Sequence record: MK327928.1
DNA length: 64,000 bases
Reading direction: 5' to 3' (one strand)
DNA from: Escherichia phage vB_EcoM_G2133
The position numbers and the translations under genes were made by a program. Each line of letters begins with the position of its first letter. The stretch's first letter is position 1. The notes under the pieces are model-generated. The model did no database searches. It was given only the letters and a program-made list of their open reading frames with translations, and was not told the DNA's origin. Below are positions 12 to 63,931 of the stretch, piece by piece.

Positions 12-2244
12 TTAGGCCGCAAGGGCCTTCATAGTTTTAGCGATTTGGGAAACTTCATCATCGCTTAAAGAATTACGATAACCGATGAAGTCGGAAACAA
101 TACGGAATTTCTTGGTAAACTCAGCAACCATTTTATCACTATTTTTTGAAGCATTACGTGATAATTCATCAAAGAGATTAGTTACTGTCCAGATATCATG
201 ACCGATGGTATCTTTTCCACCATTGAAATACACACCGCGTAATGAACTAACCATATTACCAAGTCGTGTATATTCTTCAGAAACTTCATCTGTACTGAAG
301 TACTTCATCATAAAATCTAGTTCAGGATACTTGATAATTTTATCAATATATCGTTGAGCTGAACTTGAATAACCTACATACTTATCATAATCTACATCAT
401 CAAAAGCATCTACATATAAATCACGCAAAGCTTCAAAAATACATTGGCACTGACCGAGTTCTTTTACCTTTTTCTGTAAAAGCGGACGAATAACATAAAA
501 TTCATTAATGCCAATAAGATTAGCCATACGAATCAAAATATTCATAGATGGATGACAAAGTGATGTAGTACCATCCAGCCATACGAATCAAAATATTCAT
601 AGATGGATGACAAAGTGATGTAGTACCATCCATAGAGAAAATATCAGAACGATGCATATACGCTACATAACCAGTAATTTCATCTGCTTCTGACGTAAGT
701 GTAAATAGTTCCTCTTTTTCCCAGCGCCCGTCTTTAATTTCAAACTTAAATGCTGTAGCAGCTTTAGGACGAGGAGCTTTACTTTTAACTACCTTTGGAA
801 TATAGCTTTTAACTAAAGCTTCAATTTCTGACAAATAATGAATGTTAACTTCATCACTTTCAAACATCGCTATAATATCAGGAAGCAAATCAATCTGCGA
901 TTCTACTTCTGGATTAATAAACAGAAGGCGTTCGTTGTGATGAATATTCAAAGCGTTATTAAATTCACTATCATCTAACGCACGTGCTAATCCACGGACA
1001 ATATTAACACGATTTTTAATATTATCAATAACAATATTAATTTTTGTTGTATTAATACCAAACAGACGATAGCTTGATGCAACGGCTGAAGTTTCATGAC
1101 TTTGCTTAATGCGTTTCAGTCGAGGGTCAAGATTTACTTCATACACAACTCCTGCATTGCATAACTTACTATCAGGTTCAAACATACTCTGCATCTTTTT
1201 ATATGACAGATTTTTAGTCGTGAATTTGACTGAATTACTAATCATATAATCTCGAGCAGAATACCCCATCTTCATCAATTCACGATATGTGTGACGAGGA
1301 GATGTAGATTCTTTAAATCGTTTTACATCTTCATTAAATGCTTTCTCACTGAGTTCTTTAACACGCTCAATAATATTTTTACGAGTACGATCATCCAGCG
1401 AAAGAGCCTCGCGAGATGGAGCAATATCAAGTGAACCCATTGGAAACTTAATGTAATTCACTTCATTGCGAATGCTTAGCCAGTTACGGTCTCTAATAAC
1501 ACCATCGATAGGATAAACAATACCGCCATAGATAGCATATAATCCACCACGATCAGGCCAGTATCTTTCTGGATTTACACCGTAATAGTCATCAAAATCC
1601 GGAAAATAATCAATTTCGCGGTCAAGACCGTTAATGATAGCCAAATCTTTGAACGGTCGCATGATATAAGAAACTTCATAAGCAAAGTTTCTAAAGTCTT
1701 TTTCTTCAACTGGAACTACGATTTCAATACCAGTTTTATCATCTGGACCCATTTCTTTTACGAATGTAGGTTTAATCTGTGGGCCATCGCCATCCATGTA
1801 AGCTACATAACCACGAATTTCACCTTTATGGTATGAAGTAATACTAAACGTATCAGTATAACTAAACGGAGATTTAGAACCTAAACCAAATCCGCCAATG
1901 AAATCGTTAGATTCAGCCTTAGATGAACTGAAGTATGAATTATACAGACCAGGAGAATTATCATCACCCTGAATATCAAAATCACTCATACCCGGACCAA
2001 AATCTCGGCAAACAAATCGTGGATCTAAACGTCCAGGAACTTGAATGATAAATTTTTCAGGATTTCCATTGAGAGCATGGGCATCAATCATGTTGGTAAT
2101 CAATTCACGGACTACTGCGCGAATTTTGTTTGTATACAAATCAGATGACAGAATTTTAAATACTTTAGGAGATGCTGTGATGCTAAATGCTTTTGATTTA
2201 GAACCATTACCAAGAATTGTTTCTTTTTCAGTGGTGATAATCAT
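12..2244 (-). pseudogene. rIIA: rIIA rapid-lysis gene, frame broken by a 55-bp tandem duplication (574-codon ORF 520..2244 plus stranded 3' part 12..545)
   Basis: N-terminus [20 protein letters not shown]; both ORFs encode MNILIRMA at the junction; removing one 55-bp copy gives a single 725-codon ORF. Confidence 0.85.
522..631. repeat. perfect 55-bp direct tandem duplication (2 copies) inside rIIA
   Basis: 522-576 and 577-631 are identical: agccatacgaatcaaaatattcatagatggatgacaaagtgatgtagtaccatcc. Confidence 0.95.
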
Positions 2245-11820: not shown

Positions 11821-12423
11821 TTATAGATTAAATCCTTCAAAATCAAGAGTATAGATAGTGTATGTTGAATACTTTTTGTACTCATATCTATCTGCAATTC
11901 TAAATACACTTCCAGCTGGTATCATTACTTCTTGTTCATCTGAAACTAATTCCATATTACGATAACGATGGCTATCTGGAAACTTAAAGTTTGGATTGTA
12001 TTCTTTACAGCGTAGAGCTTTTATAGCATACTCCTGGAAATTGAATACCATAGGAGCTTTGAATTCAAAAATAACTTGTGTGTTATATTCTAAACCAGAA
12101 GCAAAATGTAGAGCTATATTTTTATCATATGAAGCTGATACTACTTTATCAAATGTAATAATATCAATTCCTTGATTTAACACCTGCTTAGTCTCAGCTG
12201 GAACACCTCTCCAAAGAGGTTTATCGTTTGGAACCAAACGAGATTTGATTATTTCATTTAACCAAGTATGGTCATCTGGTTTATTAGTAATACAATGAAT
12301 TAAAAGTTCAATTTCAGATAAATTAAACCCTTCAGAAAGTAATTCTTCACGAATAGAAGCACGCACCGATGCATCCATTGATTTTATTTTAAAATCTTTT
12401 AGTTGCATTACCGAGTATTTCAT
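11821..12423 (-). CDS. modA: ModA-like ADP-ribosyltransferase
   Basis: 200 aa, size and position match T4 modA; paralog of the next ORF. Confidence 0.55.
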   Translation of the reverse strand: MKYSVMQLKDFKIKSMDASVRASIREELLSEGFNLSEIELLIHCITNKPDDHTWLNEIIKSRLVPNDKPLWRGVPAETKQVLNQGIDIITFDKVVSASYDKNIALHFASGLEYNTQVIFEFKAPMVFNFQEYAIKALRCKEYNPNFKFPDSHRYRNMELVSDEQEVMIPAGSVFRIADRYEYKKYSTYTIYTLDFEGFNL

Positions 12424-16502: not shown

Positions 16503-16703
16503 ATGGTACAAAAATTAATGGCACTTGTTAATGCCATCAAAGGTAATAAAAAGCGTATAGCTTTTACTATTTCTGCTATGGTAGGAATTTTACTCTGGAA
16601 CTTTATTTTATCACCTGTTGCAATTGCGCATGGTATTAATATTCCAGTAGTTACTCTTGATACATTCGTAGATTTAGCATTTGCTTTAGTTGGGTTAATT
16701 TAA
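16503..16703 (+). CDS. small hydrophobic protein (two predicted transmembrane segments) on the plus strand
   Basis: 66-aa ORF in the gp56/gp61 intergenic gap; AAGGAGG 5 nt upstream of ATG. Confidence 0.45.
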   Translation: MVQKLMALVNAIKGNKKRIAFTISAMVGILLWNFILSPVAIAHGINIPVVTLDTFVDLAFALVGLI

Positions 16704-17728
16704 ATCTTAGCATATTTAGATAGCCGCATTTTAGCCATCAACCCCTGAGCAATATTATTTTTCATATATTCCATAATTTGTTCAGGGGTTGCACCTTCCT
16801 TTCTAATCATATCATTAACATCTTTTGATTTCCAGGGAGATTTATCCCAAAACATAACCCTTTCTCCTGCATCAACTAATTTAGTCATTCGCTTAATAGT
16901 GTCAGGATGACGAGGTTCATTATCTAAAACCCACACGCGTCTATCTTTAAATGGAACAACTTCTAGGTCTAATTGACCACCAGTAATAGCTATACCATTT
17001 TCAATAAAAAGTGAATCTATAGGTCCTTCTAGAACATATACATCACCATCTTTAACTCGTTCAACTCCATAGATTTTTGTTGCTTCAGGATAAGCTTTGA
17101 TGGTGATATATTTTTGAGGAGCATCTTTCTTTAATGCACGTCCTTGAAACGACTCAGCTTTTCCGTTAGCATTATAAATTGGAATAATAAGACGAGGCTC
17201 AGAAATTTCCTTTTTGTATGTTCCTGGTGCTATGCTATTAACTAATTTAGGCCATTCGGTTGTAAACCAAAGATATTTCCATTTATCTTTTGGAATACAA
17301 CGAGCTTTTACGTATTTTATAATTGGATGGTCTTCCGCCAGTTTATCTAATCTAACACATGACGGAAGAGATTTAATTATTTTCTTCTCAGGTTGTTTAG
17401 GAAGTTCTTTAGGTTTTTCTACTGGACGACTTTTACCTTTTTCTTTTCTTATTTCAAAGATATACTCACGATATAAATCAGGTTCAAACTCCTTTAAATA
17501 TATTCCGATTGGTGCATGATAGTTACAGTTATAACAATGAATATTTCCTTCATTATTATCACCATAATACCATCCACGAGCTTTATTCTGGTCGGTTTTT
17601 GAATCTCCACAAACAGGGCATCTAAACCGTAATTTAAAAGTTGAACTATTATTTACTTGTGTGAATTTAGGTAAATGAGCTAATGCACGGTATGCAAACT
17701 CATTATCAATCCAAGGTATTGATGACAT
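16700..17728 (-). CDS. 61: DNA primase gp61
   Basis: 342 aa; N-terminal zinc ribbon CPVCGDS...CYNC; Toprim-like core. Confidence 0.85.
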   Translation of the reverse strand: MSSIPWIDNEFAYRALAHLPKFTQVNNSSTFKLRFRCPVCGDSKTDQNKARGWYYGDNNEGNIHCYNCNYHAPIGIYLKEFEPDLYREYIFEIRKEKGKSRPVEKPKELPKQPEKKIIKSLPSCVRLDKLAEDHPIIKYVKARCIPKDKWKYLWFTTEWPKLVNSIAPGTYKKEISEPRLIIPIYNANGKAESFQGRALKKDAPQKYITIKAYPEATKIYGVERVKDGDVYVLEGPIDSLFIENGIAITGGQLDLEVVPFKDRRVWVLDNEPRHPDTIKRMTKLVDAGERVMFWDKSPWKSKDVNDMIRKEGATPEQIMEYMKNNIAQGLMAKMRLSKYAKI

Positions 17729-17730
17729 TT

Positions 17731-17895
17731 TTACTCTTCTTTTTCTTTAGATTCCTCTTTTTTCTTTTTAGGAATCTGTTCAGGACCTTTATTTACTACA
17801 GCGCCTGATGTTGTTCCAGTAGAGATATTTTCAGGACTACCACCTGAATCTCCAGCAAGCATATCTTCTTTGATAAATTCTTTATATGTTTTCAT
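17731..17895 (-). CDS. small protein with internal-protein-like capsid-targeting N-terminus, 54 aa, not in ORF track
   Basis: MKTYKEFIKEDMLAGDSGGSPENISTGTTSGAVVNKGPEQIPKKKKEESKEKEE; N-terminus matches MKTYQEFI of ipII/ipIII. Confidence 0.5.
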   Translation of the reverse strand: MKTYKEFIKEDMLAGDSGGSPENISTGTTSGAVVNKGPEQIPKKKKEESKEKEE

Positions 17896-17896
17896 A

Positions 17897-18523
17897 TTAA
17901 CCTCTATTCATAAAAGCATTAAAAATTTGGTCATCAATAGAAACATTTACTTTAGACTGTTTTTCAGATGGCAATTCATATCCACATATTACAATTTTAT
18001 GATCAATATCAAAATACACAGAAGCAATATGATTAATGATGTTTTCAGTAAAGTCTAAATCAACATCAATATCTTTTTGACCACAGCCCAAAGGATAAAT
18101 AATGCGAGTAATTCGATTATCTTTAACAAAGATTCCACCGACATACTCTGTGCTGCGTTTAAAGTCTACACGCCGACGAAATGAAAAATATTCAGGCTCT
18201 TTATGAGCTCGGCTCATAGGGCACAACGAATAACTAGAATAAGAGATGTCAAATCCTACGCCTTCAATATGAACTAAATTGTCATGATTAAACCAATTAT
18301 AATCATATGCCAAGTCCATTAGACTGTCATATGTGAAAGACACCGGATTAACATCATTGGTCATAAGCATATAATTAGCAACTGCTATAATTTCATTATT
18401 TTTAACGAATACAAACCGTGATTGATGCGAATGACCTGGACCTGCGTTTTCACGATTAATGATATAACACTGGGCACCTTTATATTTGTACGTGTCTTTA
18501 CACTTGTGCATTTGATAAAGCAT
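17897..18523 (-). CDS. hypothetical protein
   Basis: 208-aa ORF. Confidence 0.5.
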   Translation of the reverse strand: MLYQMHKCKDTYKYKGAQCYIINRENAGPGHSHQSRFVFVKNNEIIAVANYMLMTNDVNPVSFTYDSLMDLAYDYNWFNHDNLVHIEGVGFDISYSSYSLCPMSRAHKEPEYFSFRRRVDFKRSTEYVGGIFVKDNRITRIIYPLGCGQKDIDVDLDFTENIINHIASVYFDIDHKIVICGYELPSEKQSKVNVSIDDQIFNAFMNRG

Positions 18524-63008: not shown

Positions 63009-63311
63009 TTATTTACCTTTAATTACTTTAGCTGCTTCGATAGCCGCTTGCTGAAGGTCATCCATAGACATACCGAATTTAGAAGCAAAGTTATCAATTT
63101 TCTTTTCGACAGCATTCAAAGGCTTGGCCTGTTTACCTTCATTAGCGCCAGGAAGAGCGAGAATACGCTCTTTGTCAATATAAAGGCTTACAAGTTTCTT
63201 ACGGTCTTTATCGGACAAATCATGAAATGAATGGGCCTTTTTATTTATAGCGGCTTCTAATTTACCTGCACTCACTCGCGCTTCAGTAATAAATTCTTGA
63301 TATGTTTTCAT
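63009..63311 (-). CDS. ipII: internal protein II (packaged in capsid)
   Basis: 100 aa; N-terminal capsid targeting sequence MKTYQEFITEA. Confidence 0.75.
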   Translation of the reverse strand: MKTYQEFITEARVSAGKLEAAINKKAHSFHDLSDKDRKKLVSLYIDKERILALPGANEGKQAKPLNAVEKKIDNFASKFGMSMDDLQQAAIEAAKVIKGK

Positions 63312-63352
63312 ATGTTTCCTTTAAATGTAAATAGGTCTGAGTATTAGCTTTA

Positions 63353-63931
63353 TTAGGAATTACGGGCTGCATTAGCAACGGCGTAAGCGTACTGAACATT
63401 AGCGTCTTTAAACGTACCTTTAGAGGTATCTAGTTCTGCCTTAAAGCCGCCTTTAGTCATAACATCGGCAAATTCTTTACGGAAAGCCATTGCATCAAGA
63501 CTTCTCCATAATGATTTGTGCTTGGCGAATTCAAGACCAGCGTAGTTGACAGCCTTAGCTAATTTGTTATCAATAACCCATTTACCAGCTTTAGGCACAA
63601 ACACCGGGCCTTTCTGTTTAGAGAACAGTTTTAAATTCCAGCGACGAAGGTCACCGTCGGCTTTAACAAAAGCTGCGTCTAAGTTACTAGCAACAACATC
63701 CTGAATATGGCCAAATTTAAGCCCATCAACTTCAATATTTAGATCGGTACGCCAGCGAAGTCCTTCCCAAGCGAAAGCTTTAAAGTCGGAAGCCTTTGTA
63801 GCTAAGTACCGTTCAATAGGAGCTGTTTTAGGGTCAAAGCCGTTTCCCGATCGGTAGGTCCACTCATCTTTATTAATGCCTTTGGCCTTTACTACAGAAG
63901 CTTCGGCAATAAATTCTTGATATGTTTTCAT
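63353..63931 (-). CDS. ipIII: internal protein III (packaged in capsid)
   Basis: 192 aa; N-terminal capsid targeting sequence MKTYQEFIAEA. Confidence 0.75.
   Translation of the reverse strand: MKTYQEFIAEASVVKAKGINKDEWTYRSGNGFDPKTAPIERYLATKASDFKAFAWEGLRWRTDLNIEVDGLKFGHIQDVVASNLDAAFVKADGDLRRWNLKLFSKQKGPVFVPKAGKWVIDNKLAKAVNYAGLEFAKHKSLWRSLDAMAFRKEFADVMTKGGFKAELDTSKGTFKDANVQYAYAVANAARNS

What the first reader, a model, noticed from the sequence alone, without database searches (positions are those of the whole stretch)
17731..17895. 54-aa ORF carrying an internal-protein-type capsid targeting sequence
A 54-aa ORF (not in the track) between primase and ORF 17897..18523 starts MKTYKEFIKE, closely matching the MKTYQEFI(A/T)E N-termini of ipII and ipIII 45 kb away. 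The I-x-E in that leader resembles the site where the prohead protease is known to cut internal proteins. The rest is a low-complexity Gly/Ser/Thr stretch and a Lys/Glu-rich tail, suggesting a small injected protein such as an anti-defence factor.
Basis: partly seen in the sequence, partly recalled or inferred. Interest (0 to 1): 0.55.

Follow-up and report, generated by a model that had tools for sequence, protein, structure and literature searches.

The report
T4 gene 61.1: capsid-protein mimic

Summary
Window 17731..17895 (-) encodes 54 aa starting MKTYKEFIKE, 8/10 identical to the ipIII leader and 7/10 to the ipII leader in the same window. No other start in 64 kb matches at 6/10 or better.

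The ORF is the ortholog of T4 gene 61.1, annotated in GenBank as hypothetical. It evolves under strong purifying selection (dN/dS 0.01-0.16). It lay directly upstream of the primase gene in all 69 related metagenomic loci.

The "low-complexity" stretch is a conserved module homologous to gp23 residues 57-93. That segment holds the gp21 cleavage site Glu65|Ala66 and the "N-fist" of mature gp23* (pairwise E 1e-7; profile E 1e-8 to 3e-11, gp23 the only hits). An aliphatic-x-Glu motif precedes the module in all 55 distinct family junctions.

Many relatives carry a long form of 150-180 aa, in which a helical domain replaces the short leader.

Best reading (inferred): a prohead-targeted gp21 substrate whose product mimics the gp23* N-terminus, acting as a dispensable head accessory. 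Family-wide conservation argues against a host-specific anti-defence cargo. Packaging and cleavage remain untested, and no paper describing the gene's function was found.

The parts
17731..17895 (-). Gene 61.1 ortholog, 54 codons plus TAA stop
   Evidence: ORF list. T4 annotation NP_049649.1 at the syntenic place. phrog_1823 full-length match, E 1e-32. dN/dS 0.01-0.16 between genera.
17901..17904 (-). Shine-Dalgarno GAGG, 5 nt upstream of the ATG, lying inside the end of gene 61.2
   Evidence: Read directly from the sequence.
17866..17895 (-). Codons 1-10, MKTYKEFIKE: capsid-targeting-sequence-type leader
   Evidence: 8/10 identical to the ipIII leader and 7/10 to the ipII leader; the only other such start in the window. 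Positions 4, 7, 8 and 10 are the experimentally important ones. The same 7-residue start heads 55 unrelated proteins in viral contigs.
17866..17874 (-). Codons 8-10, Ile-Lys-Glu: predicted gp21 prohead-protease site, cut after Glu10
   Evidence: Glu10 aligns with gp23 Glu65, the known cleavage site (review). Aliphatic-x-Glu is kept in 55/55 distinct family junctions. The gp21 I/L-x-E preference is cited.
17776..17865 (-). Codons 11-40, DMLAGDSGGSPENISTGTTSGAVVNKGPEQ: module homologous to the N-terminus ('N-fist') of mature gp23*
   Evidence: BLASTP to T4 gp23 57-93: 41% identity, no gaps, E 1e-7. Module HMM hits only gp23 among 1731 ORFs, E 3e-11 to 7e-8 at Z = 1e6. T4 gp23 is the top PDB hit. 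Invariant columns listed.
17734..17775 (-). Codons 41-54, IPKKKKEESKEKEE: Lys-rich charged tail
   Evidence: A K/R-rich tail is present in all family members. Mean net charge of the 15 residues after the Gly-Pro is +4.2 (alignments).
16700..17728 (-). Gene 61 primase, 2 nt downstream (context; probably translationally coupled)
   Evidence: A primase homolog lies directly downstream in 69/69 related loci.
17897..18523 (-). Gene 61.2 = AdfA, anti-DarT factor, immediately upstream (context)
   Evidence: Pfam PF23813, E 3e-134.
63009..63931 (-). ipII (63009..63311) and ipIII (63353..63931), the comparator internal-protein genes carrying the canonical leader
   Evidence: phrog_7857 and phrog_5341, 'internal virion protein'.

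Best explanation
The ORF is T4 gene 61.1. It has three parts:
1. A 10-residue leader of the capsid-targeting type that ends in an Ile-x-Glu prohead-protease site.
2. A 30-residue module that is an ancient paralog of the gp23 segment starting at the maturation cut (Glu65|Ala66) and forming the N-terminal 'N-fist' of gp23*.
3. A Lys-rich tail.

Proposed mechanism:
- The protein is made with the helicase-primase operon. That operon also encodes the head-vertex chaperone gp40.
- The leader takes it into the assembling prohead core. In long-form relatives the helical N-domain would do this instead.
- gp21 cuts it after Glu10.
- The freed 44-residue peptide behaves like a detached gp23* N-terminus. 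It would dock on the gp23/gp24 lattice, for example where no gp23 N-fist is supplied: next to gp24 pentamers or the portal. It would therefore be a minor, dispensable head accessory rather than a host-specific weapon.

What is shown: gene identity, purifying selection, family-wide conservation of the junction motif, homology to gp23 57-93, synteny, and lack of a knock-down phenotype.

What is inferred: targeting, cleavage, and what the mature peptide binds.
For: - Identity and selection.
- Leader: 8/10 identical to the ipIII leader and 7/10 to the ipII leader, unique in the window, with the experimentally critical positions 4, 7, 8 and 10 kept.
- Leader type is portable. MKTY[KQ]EF heads 55 unrelated cargo families, 30 of them with [LIVMF]-x-E at positions 8-10. 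MIGFKQF heads about 14.
- The leader varies by lineage together with the UvsW.1 leader.
- Junction: aliphatic-x-Glu in 55/55 distinct junctions, short and long forms alike.
- Homology to gp23 57-93, with Glu10 aligned to Glu65.
- N-fist biology: it contacts four subunits, moves from inside to outside on expansion, and is absent from gp24 (review PMC9958956).
- Near-universal in non-cyanophage T4-like phages and always next to the primase gene. gp40 sits in the same gene block.
- Dispensable in the laboratory, as Soc, Hoc and the internal proteins are: CRISPRi-ART score -0.84, 'Not Fit'.
- Internal proteins are also made early, so early expression is compatible (own knowledge).
Against: - No direct evidence of packaging or cleavage. 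[quoted passage not shown] The protein was also not found in the stored part of a T4 infection proteome.
- No late promoter (TATAAATA) lies anywhere upstream in the operon, and T4 tables class the gene as early.
- Small cleavage peptides are thought to leave the prohead.
- I am not aware of any unassigned N-fist-like density reported in published 3.3-3.4 A head maps; I did not check this.
- The module does not co-vary with the phage's own gp23: 15.9 vs 15.5 identities of 33, and insertions are not shared.
- A CTS-like leader also sits on UvsW.1, which is not known to be a virion protein. The leader alone therefore does not prove packaging.
- Long forms have no N-terminal leader.
Confidence: 0.4

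Rival explanations
1. Cytoplasmic decoy or regulator. gp61.1 is made early and stays in the cytoplasm. There it acts as a mimic of the gp23 cleavage region: a competitive substrate or inhibitor that soaks up stray gp21 activity, or a blocker of something that binds the gp23 N-terminal segment. It could, for instance, blunt host sensors triggered by gp21 or by capsid protein.
For: - Early expression with no late promoter.
- Exact mimicry of the gp23 site, including about 28 residues on the P' side.
- A 2026 preprint shows that a CBASS CD-NTase is switched on when gp21 cuts an I/L-x-E loop, so gp21 activity outside proheads is sensed.
- The gene sits beside the dmd, tifA and adfA anti-toxin genes, a block called an 'anti-TA island'.
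Against: - Conservation in phages of very different hosts, and in genomes lacking the neighbouring anti-defence genes (avDM7, D482, Thanatos-2), points to a phage-encoded partner.
- A cleavable substrate is consumed, and gp23 vastly outnumbers an early small protein.
- This model gives no role to the conserved basic tail or to the N-domain.
Confidence: 0.2
2. It is a fourth internal protein: packaged through the leader, trimmed by gp21, injected with the DNA, and acting against a host defence system.
For: - Leader and cleavage motif as in ipII and ipIII.
- Internal proteins are a diverse CTS-tagged set of defence inhibitors (PMC3012670).
- Neighbouring genes are anti-defence genes.
- Dispensable in a laboratory host.
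Against: - Internal proteins are poorly conserved, even among T-even phages. This module is nearly invariant across genera and host groups, with dN/dS 0.01-0.16.
- The body is a copy of a capsid-protein segment, not a folded inhibitor. AlphaFold2 predicts it to be disordered in the long form (pLDDT below 50).
- Not reported among T4 head proteins.
Confidence: 0.12
3. Replication accessory. The gene's fixed place between helicase 41 and primase 61 reflects a role with the primosome, with the basic tail binding DNA or an acidic replisome surface. The resemblance to gp23 and to the CTS would then be historical or incidental.
For: - A primase homolog lies directly downstream in 69/69 loci.
- It is the only gene between 41 and 61 in Aeromonas, Vibrio and Shewanella phages.
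- Likely translational coupling to gene 61.
- Another CTS-like leader sits on UvsW.1, a helicase-associated protein.
Against: - Nothing in the sequence resembles a known replication factor (Pfam and NCBIfam give no hits).
- It does not explain selection for the aliphatic-x-Glu junction or the gp23-like residues.
- Gene order of core T4 genes is conserved in general, and gp40, a head-assembly factor, is in the same block.
- An apparent helicase fusion in TAG-recoded phages proved to be a separate frame.
Confidence: 0.15
4. A non-functional remnant of a partial duplication of gene 23, or a chance ORF.
For: Short length. No fitness effect of knock-down.
Against: - Saturated synonymous change alongside very low non-synonymous change.
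- Hundreds of orthologs, with invariant columns.
- Good Shine-Dalgarno and tight operon packing.
Confidence: 0.02

Closest known systems
T4 internal proteins IPI, IPII and IPIII and their capsid targeting sequence (Mullaney & Black 1996)
   Same: A 10-residue N-terminal leader, M-K-T-Y-x-E-F-I-x-E, with the same residues at positions 4, 7, 8 and 10 and an Ile-x-Glu gp21 site at its end. Dispensable in the laboratory. Encoded in the early region.
   Different: The cargo is a 44-residue peptide, predicted disordered, copied from the capsid protein rather than a folded basic protein. It is conserved across the whole family instead of hypervariable. Many orthologs lack the N-terminal leader and carry a 105-aa domain instead. 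Packaging has not been shown.
[quoted passage not shown]
   Same: Ungapped alignment of residues 2-38 with gp23 57-93. Shared pattern: F-[LI]-x-E | x-x-x-G-D-x-G-x-x-x-x-I-[AS]-x-G-x-T-[ST]-G-A-[VI]-x-x-x-G-P.
   Different: No HK97-fold body follows; a Lys-rich tail does. There are family-specific residues (GDSGG versus GDHGY). There is no co-variation with the cognate gp23, so this is an old paralog and not a recent copy.
Small gp21-processed prohead core proteins gp67 and gp68 and the internal peptides II and VII
   Same: Small proteins that would be cut by gp21 inside the prohead to give short peptides.
   Different: Those are highly acidic, are encoded in the late head-gene cluster, and are essential or shape-determining. 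61.1 is encoded in the replication operon, has a basic tail, and is dispensable.
Accessory capsid proteins Soc and Hoc
   Same: If the docking model is right: a non-essential protein that binds the expanded gp23* lattice. The N-fist helps to form the Soc site.
   Different: Soc and Hoc are added from outside after expansion, are not processed, and are seen in cryo-EM maps. None of this has been shown for 61.1.

Membership tests
T4 gene 61.1 orthologs (phrog_1823) | Full-length sequence match and the same position, directly upstream of gene 61 | tested here: met
   Matches T4 NP_049649.1 at 50 of 54 positions (residues 4, 13, 20 and 26 differ), at the syntenic place. phrog_1823 E 1e-32 over residues 1-54. 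Primase directly downstream.
CTS-bearing internal (packaged) proteins of T4-like phages | N-terminal ~10-residue leader resembling MKTYQEFIAE, with the residues important for targeting (4, 7) and processing (8, 10) | tested here: met
   MKTYKEFIKE: Y4, F7, I8 and E10 identical to ipIII. Importance of these positions from review PMC9026906.
CTS-bearing internal (packaged) proteins of T4-like phages | gp21 cleavage motif (L/I)-x-E at the end of the leader | tested here: met
   I-K-E at residues 8-10. The motif is conserved in 55/55 distinct junctions of the family. Actual cleavage was not tested.
CTS-bearing internal (packaged) proteins of T4-like phages | Physically present in proheads and virions, and injected with the DNA | not testable with these tools
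   Literature held here: no mention in the T4 virion mass-spectrometry paper or its supplements. Not found in the stored part of an infection proteome table.
CTS-bearing internal (packaged) proteins of T4-like phages | Cargo that is lineage-specific and poorly conserved (arms-race proteins) | tested here: not met
   Module conserved from Escherichia to Vibrio, Acinetobacter and Shewanella phages, with invariant columns; dN/dS 0.01-0.16.
CTS-bearing internal (packaged) proteins of T4-like phages | Expression that reaches the time of prohead assembly (internal-protein genes have early and late promoters) | tested here: inconclusive
   No TATAAATA on the minus strand between 15.5 and 57 kb. T4 tables class 61.1 as early. 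Protein stability is unknown.
Major capsid protein gp23 family (HK97 fold) | Significant similarity to the gp23 sequence | tested here: met
   Only to residues 57-93: BLASTP E 1e-7; profile E 1e-8 for T4 gp23 and down to 3e-11 for others. gp23 is the top PDB hit.
Major capsid protein gp23 family (HK97 fold) | HK97-fold A and P domains | tested here: not met
   The protein ends 16 residues after the similar segment. Database names such as 'major capsid (domain-containing) protein' overstate the relationship.
Anti-defence proteins of the dmd-tifA-adfA 'anti-TA island' | Demonstrated or homology-based link to inhibition of a defence system | not tested
   Adjacency only. No homology to a known inhibitor in Pfam, PHROGs or NCBIfam. 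The gene persists in genomes that lack the island.

The most novel reading that the evidence does not exclude
gp61.1 is a detachable 'spare N-fist'. It enters the prohead, gp21 cuts it exactly as it cuts gp23, and the peptide completes the capsid lattice where gp23 cannot supply an N-fist, around gp24 pentamers or the portal. It is also the evolutionary link showing that the internal-protein capsid targeting sequence derives from the segment of the major capsid protein just before its maturation cut. In that case, proteins are addressed to the T4 head by imitating the capsid protein's own propeptide end.
Probability: 0.2. Interest if true: 0.75.

Novelty: new variant of a known kind. Interest (0 to 1): 0.55.

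Why it matters
- How proteins are addressed to the T4 scaffolding core is still described as unresolved (review). The 10-residue targeting tag is widely used for phage engineering.
- This gene joins that tag to a copy of the capsid protein's cleavage site and N-fist. It suggests the tag works by imitating gp23's own propeptide end, and it gives a small, dispensable gene on which to test the idea.
- It adds a nearly universal but overlooked gene to the T4-like gene set. The published core and quasicore lists do not include it.
- It shows that database labels such as 'major capsid protein' on these small ORFs are misleading.
- The census of leaders in viral contigs suggests that capsid-targeted cargo is far more diverse than the known internal proteins: dozens of unrelated proteins, including RNA-ligase-like enzymes.

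Tried and rejected
1. Helicase fusion. In five TAG-recoded loci the module seemed to continue from gp41 through a TAG codon. Checking frames showed it is a separate overlapping ORF, so this gives no Rosetta-stone evidence.
2. Co-variation with the phage's own gp23. Identity to own versus foreign gp23 N-fists is 15.9 versus 15.5 of 33. Insertions in the module (Yersinia TG1, Vibrio phages) are absent from the cognate gp23. There is no concerted evolution.
3. Fold of the long-form N-domain. The AlphaFold2 model is helical but of modest confidence (mean pLDDT 64), and Foldseek against the PDB found nothing (best E 1.8). Pfam and NCBIfam gave nothing either.
4. The N-domain is not encoded elsewhere in this window (tblastn, best E 0.12).
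5. Recent DNA transfer of an ip-gene leader cassette. The upstream sequences are unrelated.
6. The representative-protein search was meant to profile the 54-aa module, but the N-domain columns entered the profile and dominated the hits. It showed the breadth of the N-domain family but not other homes of the module.
7. Literature. Searches for 61.1, gp61.1 and the leader peptides found no functional study. One search on bare gene numbers was swamped by unrelated papers. The Miller 2003 T4 genome review is not held.
8. Two guesses at gene 23 coordinates missed, for IME-CF2 and VH7D.
9. RNA element on either strand: no Rfam hit, folding z = -1.7.

Full report
**What is there**

Window 17731..17895 (minus strand) is an ATG-initiated ORF of 54 codons: MKTYKEFIKEDMLAGDSGGSPENISTGTTSGAVVNKGPEQIPKKKKEESKEKEE. 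It is tightly packed. The stop of the upstream gene lies 1 nt before its ATG, a GAGG Shine-Dalgarno lies 5 nt upstream, and its own stop lies 2 nt before the primase ATG.

The window is a Tequatrovirus, 98.8% identical to phage VEc74 over this region. On the minus strand the gene order is 41, dmd, 61.4, sp, 61.2, this ORF, 61. T4 GenBank annotates the equivalent ORF as 61.1, 'gp61.1 hypothetical protein' (NP_049649.1, MKTFKEFIKE...). The upstream gene 61.2 is the anti-DarT factor AdfA.

**The leader observation holds**

- ipII (63009..63311) starts MKTYQEFITE and ipIII (63353..63931) starts MKTYQEFIAE.
- Among all ATG/GTG/TTG starts on both strands of the 64-kb window, only these two and 61.1 match the ipIII leader at 6/10 or better, with 9, 10 and 8 identities.
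- Experiments summarised in a review located targeting mainly at residues 4 and 7 of the IPIII leader and processing at residues 8 and 10 (PMC9026906). All four (Y4, F7, I8, E10) are identical in 61.1.
- At the DNA level 25/30 leader bases equal those of ipIII, but the upstream regions are unrelated. This is not a recently moved cassette.

**It is a real gene**

Between genera of T-even-like phages, synonymous sites are saturated (pS 0.6-0.9) while non-synonymous change is 3-20%. This gives dN/dS of 0.01-0.16 in the core and similar values overall. No Rfam family matches either strand, and the RNA fold is unremarkable.

**The 'low-complexity' part is the conserved part, and it is a piece of the capsid protein**

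- tblastn finds relatives in 1477 phage records, including phages of Klebsiella, Aeromonas, Acinetobacter, Vibrio and Shewanella. In distant ones the match covers residues 8-41, not the leader.
- Some records and UniRef call these small ORFs 'major capsid (domain-containing) protein'.
- The reason is visible in a direct comparison. Residues 2-38 align without gaps to T4 gp23 residues 57-93, at 41% identity and pairwise E 1e-7. Glu10 falls on Glu65.
- gp23 is cut by the gp21 prohead protease after its first 65 residues, between Glu65 and Ala66. The next ~25 residues form the 'N-fist' of gp23*. According to review PMC9958956, the N-fist contacts four neighbouring subunits, moves from inside the prohead to the outer surface on expansion, helps form the Soc site, and has no counterpart in gp24.
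- I built a profile from 55 distinct 61.1 modules and searched it, with all filters off, against 1731 stop-to-stop ORFs from the window and five head-gene loci. It hit only gp23 proteins, with E 3e-11 to 7e-8 for a nominal database of one million.
- In the PDB, T4 gp23 is the top hit.
- Shared pattern: F-[LI]-x-E | x-x-x-G-D-x-G-x-x-x-x-I-[AS]-x-G-x-T-[ST]-G-A-[VI]-x-x-x-G-P.
- The two families also differ consistently (GDSGG versus GDHGY). The module is no closer to its own phage's gp23 than to others (15.9 versus 15.5 identities of 33), and insertions are not shared. They are old paralogs, not recent copies.

**Family anatomy**

There are two forms.

- Short forms (51-64 aa) occur in Tequatrovirus and several other genera. 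Leaders include MKTYKEFIKE, MKTFKDFINE, MKSFKEVMNE, MKTYKEFVKLNE and MIGFKQFVEENKLKE.
- Long forms (phrog_2086, about 150-180 aa) occur in CC31 (where the gene is annotated 61.1), RB69, Salmonella, Citrobacter, Yersinia, Serratia, Acinetobacter and Vibrio phages. They have a helical N-domain of about 105 residues, then the same junction and module.
- AlphaFold2 gives the N-domain moderate confidence and leaves the module disordered. No PDB fold matches.

In every one of 55 distinct junctions the module is preceded by aliphatic-x-Glu. In 47 this holds with the nearest Glu. In the other 8 there is a Glu-Glu pair, and the first Glu gives L/M-x-E. That is the known gp21 preference, I/L-x-E.

The module is always followed by a K/R-rich tail, with mean net charge +4.2 over 15 residues.

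**Synteny**

In all 69 loci recovered from viral contigs, a primase homolog lies directly downstream on the same strand. In Aeromonas avDM7, Vibrio D482 and Shewanella Thanatos-2 this is the only gene between helicase 41 and primase 61. T-even phages have inserted dmd, tifA, sp and adfA between 41 and 61.1. The head-vertex chaperone gene 40 sits just upstream of 41 in the same block, so a head-assembly gene in this operon has a precedent.

**The leader is a general, portable tag**

They fall into 55 unrelated cargo families of 40-833 aa, and 30 of these continue with [LIVMF]-x-E at positions 8-10.
- The Krischvirus 61.1 leader MIGFKQF heads about 14 unrelated proteins, including RNA-ligase-like and HAD-like enzymes. 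Nine of them continue with [LIVF]-x-E.
- Within genomes the leader varies by lineage across unrelated genes. GEC-3S has MIGFKQFVEE on 61.1 and MISFKRFLVE on UvsW.1. CC31 UvsW.1 has MKTFEEVIYE, and T4 UvsW.1 has ..EFKQFLYE|AS.
- This fits a shared, lineage-specific receptor. However, UvsW.1 is not known to be packaged, so the leader alone is not proof of packaging.
- A marine short form, MKTYKEFIKQFDEE-ITNV...KKKRK, and the HTVC008M gene MKTFTDF...QEDIANVAGDG show the same association far outside the T-even group.

**What the literature adds**

- I found no functional study of 61.1.
- It is listed as function 'Unknown', and its knock-down in T4 had no fitness effect (score -0.84, p 0.93, 'Not Fit'; PMC11879866 supplement).
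- T4 tables class it as early.
- It is absent from the published core and quasicore lists.
- The neighbouring genes have been called an anti-TA island whose other genes are 'attractive anti-toxin candidates'.
- A 2026 preprint reports that CBASS enzymes sense gp21 through I/L-x-E loops.

**Interpretation**

Shown here: a conserved gene with three parts.
1. A variable addressing part, either a CTS-type leader or an N-domain.
2. A conserved gp21-type junction.
3. A conserved copy of the gp23* N-terminus followed by a basic tail.

Inferred: the protein enters the prohead core and is cut after Glu10. The 44-residue product then acts like a detached N-fist on the gp23/gp24 lattice, as a dispensable head accessory (confidence 0.4).

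Rivals:
- A cytoplasmic decoy or regulator of gp21, or of something that binds gp23 (0.2).
- A replication accessory, suggested by the synteny (0.15).
This fits the leader but not the family-wide conservation.
- A non-functional remnant (0.02).

No late promoter lies upstream, and small cleavage peptides are thought to leave proheads. Both points count against the preferred model.

**Novelty**

The ORF itself is already annotated. I found no description in the searchable literature of three things:
- its CTS-type leader;
- the homology of its body to the gp23 cleavage site and N-fist;
- the long and short forms with near-universal synteny.

It is best filed as a new variant of a known kind: a CTS/gp21-site protein whose cargo is a capsid-protein mimic. 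All functional steps remain to be tested.

Noticed in passing
window 17897..18523 (-): The ORF immediately upstream (T4 gene 61.2) is a full-length match to Pfam AdfA, anti-DarT factor A (E 3e-134). Together with dmd, 61.4 and sp it forms the block between genes 41 and 61.1 that the literature calls an anti-TA island.
   Followed up: partly
L050, L057-L060 (IMG/VR contigs, about 30% GC), positions ~1080-2680: These T4-like phages have in-frame TAG codons in the gp41 helicase homolog. They also have one inside the 61.1 module, at a position that is Gln (CAA/CAG) in the sister contig. TAG is therefore evidently read as a sense codon. The module ORF overlaps the end of gp41 in another frame and is not a fusion.
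   Followed up: partly
L084 (RB69, NC_004928) 1518..1984: In the RB69 RefSeq record the long-form 61.1 is split by a frameshift into RB69ORF032c (N-domain start) and a 92-aa '61.1'. Near-identical intact 155-aa versions exist in L033 and L034. This is either a sequencing error or a real disruption.
   Followed up: partly
L008 22572..22802 (CC31 uvsW.1); L009 24104.. (GEC-3S); PDB 2JPN (T4 UvsW.1): UvsW.1, a small protein encoded next to the UvsW helicase, also starts with a CTS-like leader ending in L/I-x-E: MKTFEEVIYE|AT, MISFKRFLVE|AA and ..EFKQFLYE|AS. It is not known to be a virion protein.
   Followed up: partly
L091-L109 and L110-L229 (IMG/VR): The leaders MIGFKQF and MKTY[KQ]EF head dozens of unrelated proteins in viral contigs. 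These include RNA-ligase-like proteins of 411-582 aa, a HAD-like protein of 201 aa and an 833-aa helicase-like protein. More than half continue with [LIVMF]-x-E at positions 8-10. Capsid-targeted cargo may be much more diverse than the known internal proteins.
   Followed up: partly
P0110-P0258; L085 (Pelagibacter phage HTVC008M) 2989..5044: The helical N-domain of long-form 61.1 (phrog_2086/phrog_18642) is a large uncharacterised family: 1838 representative proteins at E<=1e-3. It reaches into Kyanoviridae with other C-termini. HTVC008M has three consecutive genes about 3 kb upstream of its primase: an N-domain protein, a very basic protein starting MRTYRAFKKD, and a 359-aa protein starting MKTFTDF that contains a module-like EDIANVAGDG.
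   Followed up: partly
whole window: The T4 late-promoter core TATAAATA occurs only 3 times in 64 kb, against 11 expected from shuffles. None lies on the minus strand between 15.5 and 57 kb. This fits an early/middle-gene region.
   Followed up: no
L010 (Citrobacter phage IME-CF2), minus strand, start at 12167: A 263-aa hypothetical protein between the gp2-like and gp3-like genes starts MKSFKELLSE, another CTS-like leader. It is a candidate internal protein of that phage.
   Followed up: no
window 16503..16703 (+): A 66-aa ORF with a hydrophobic, membrane-like sequence lies on the opposite strand between genes 56 and 61. It is annotated in a related phage as RB32ORF030w, hypothetical protein (L001).
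   Followed up: no
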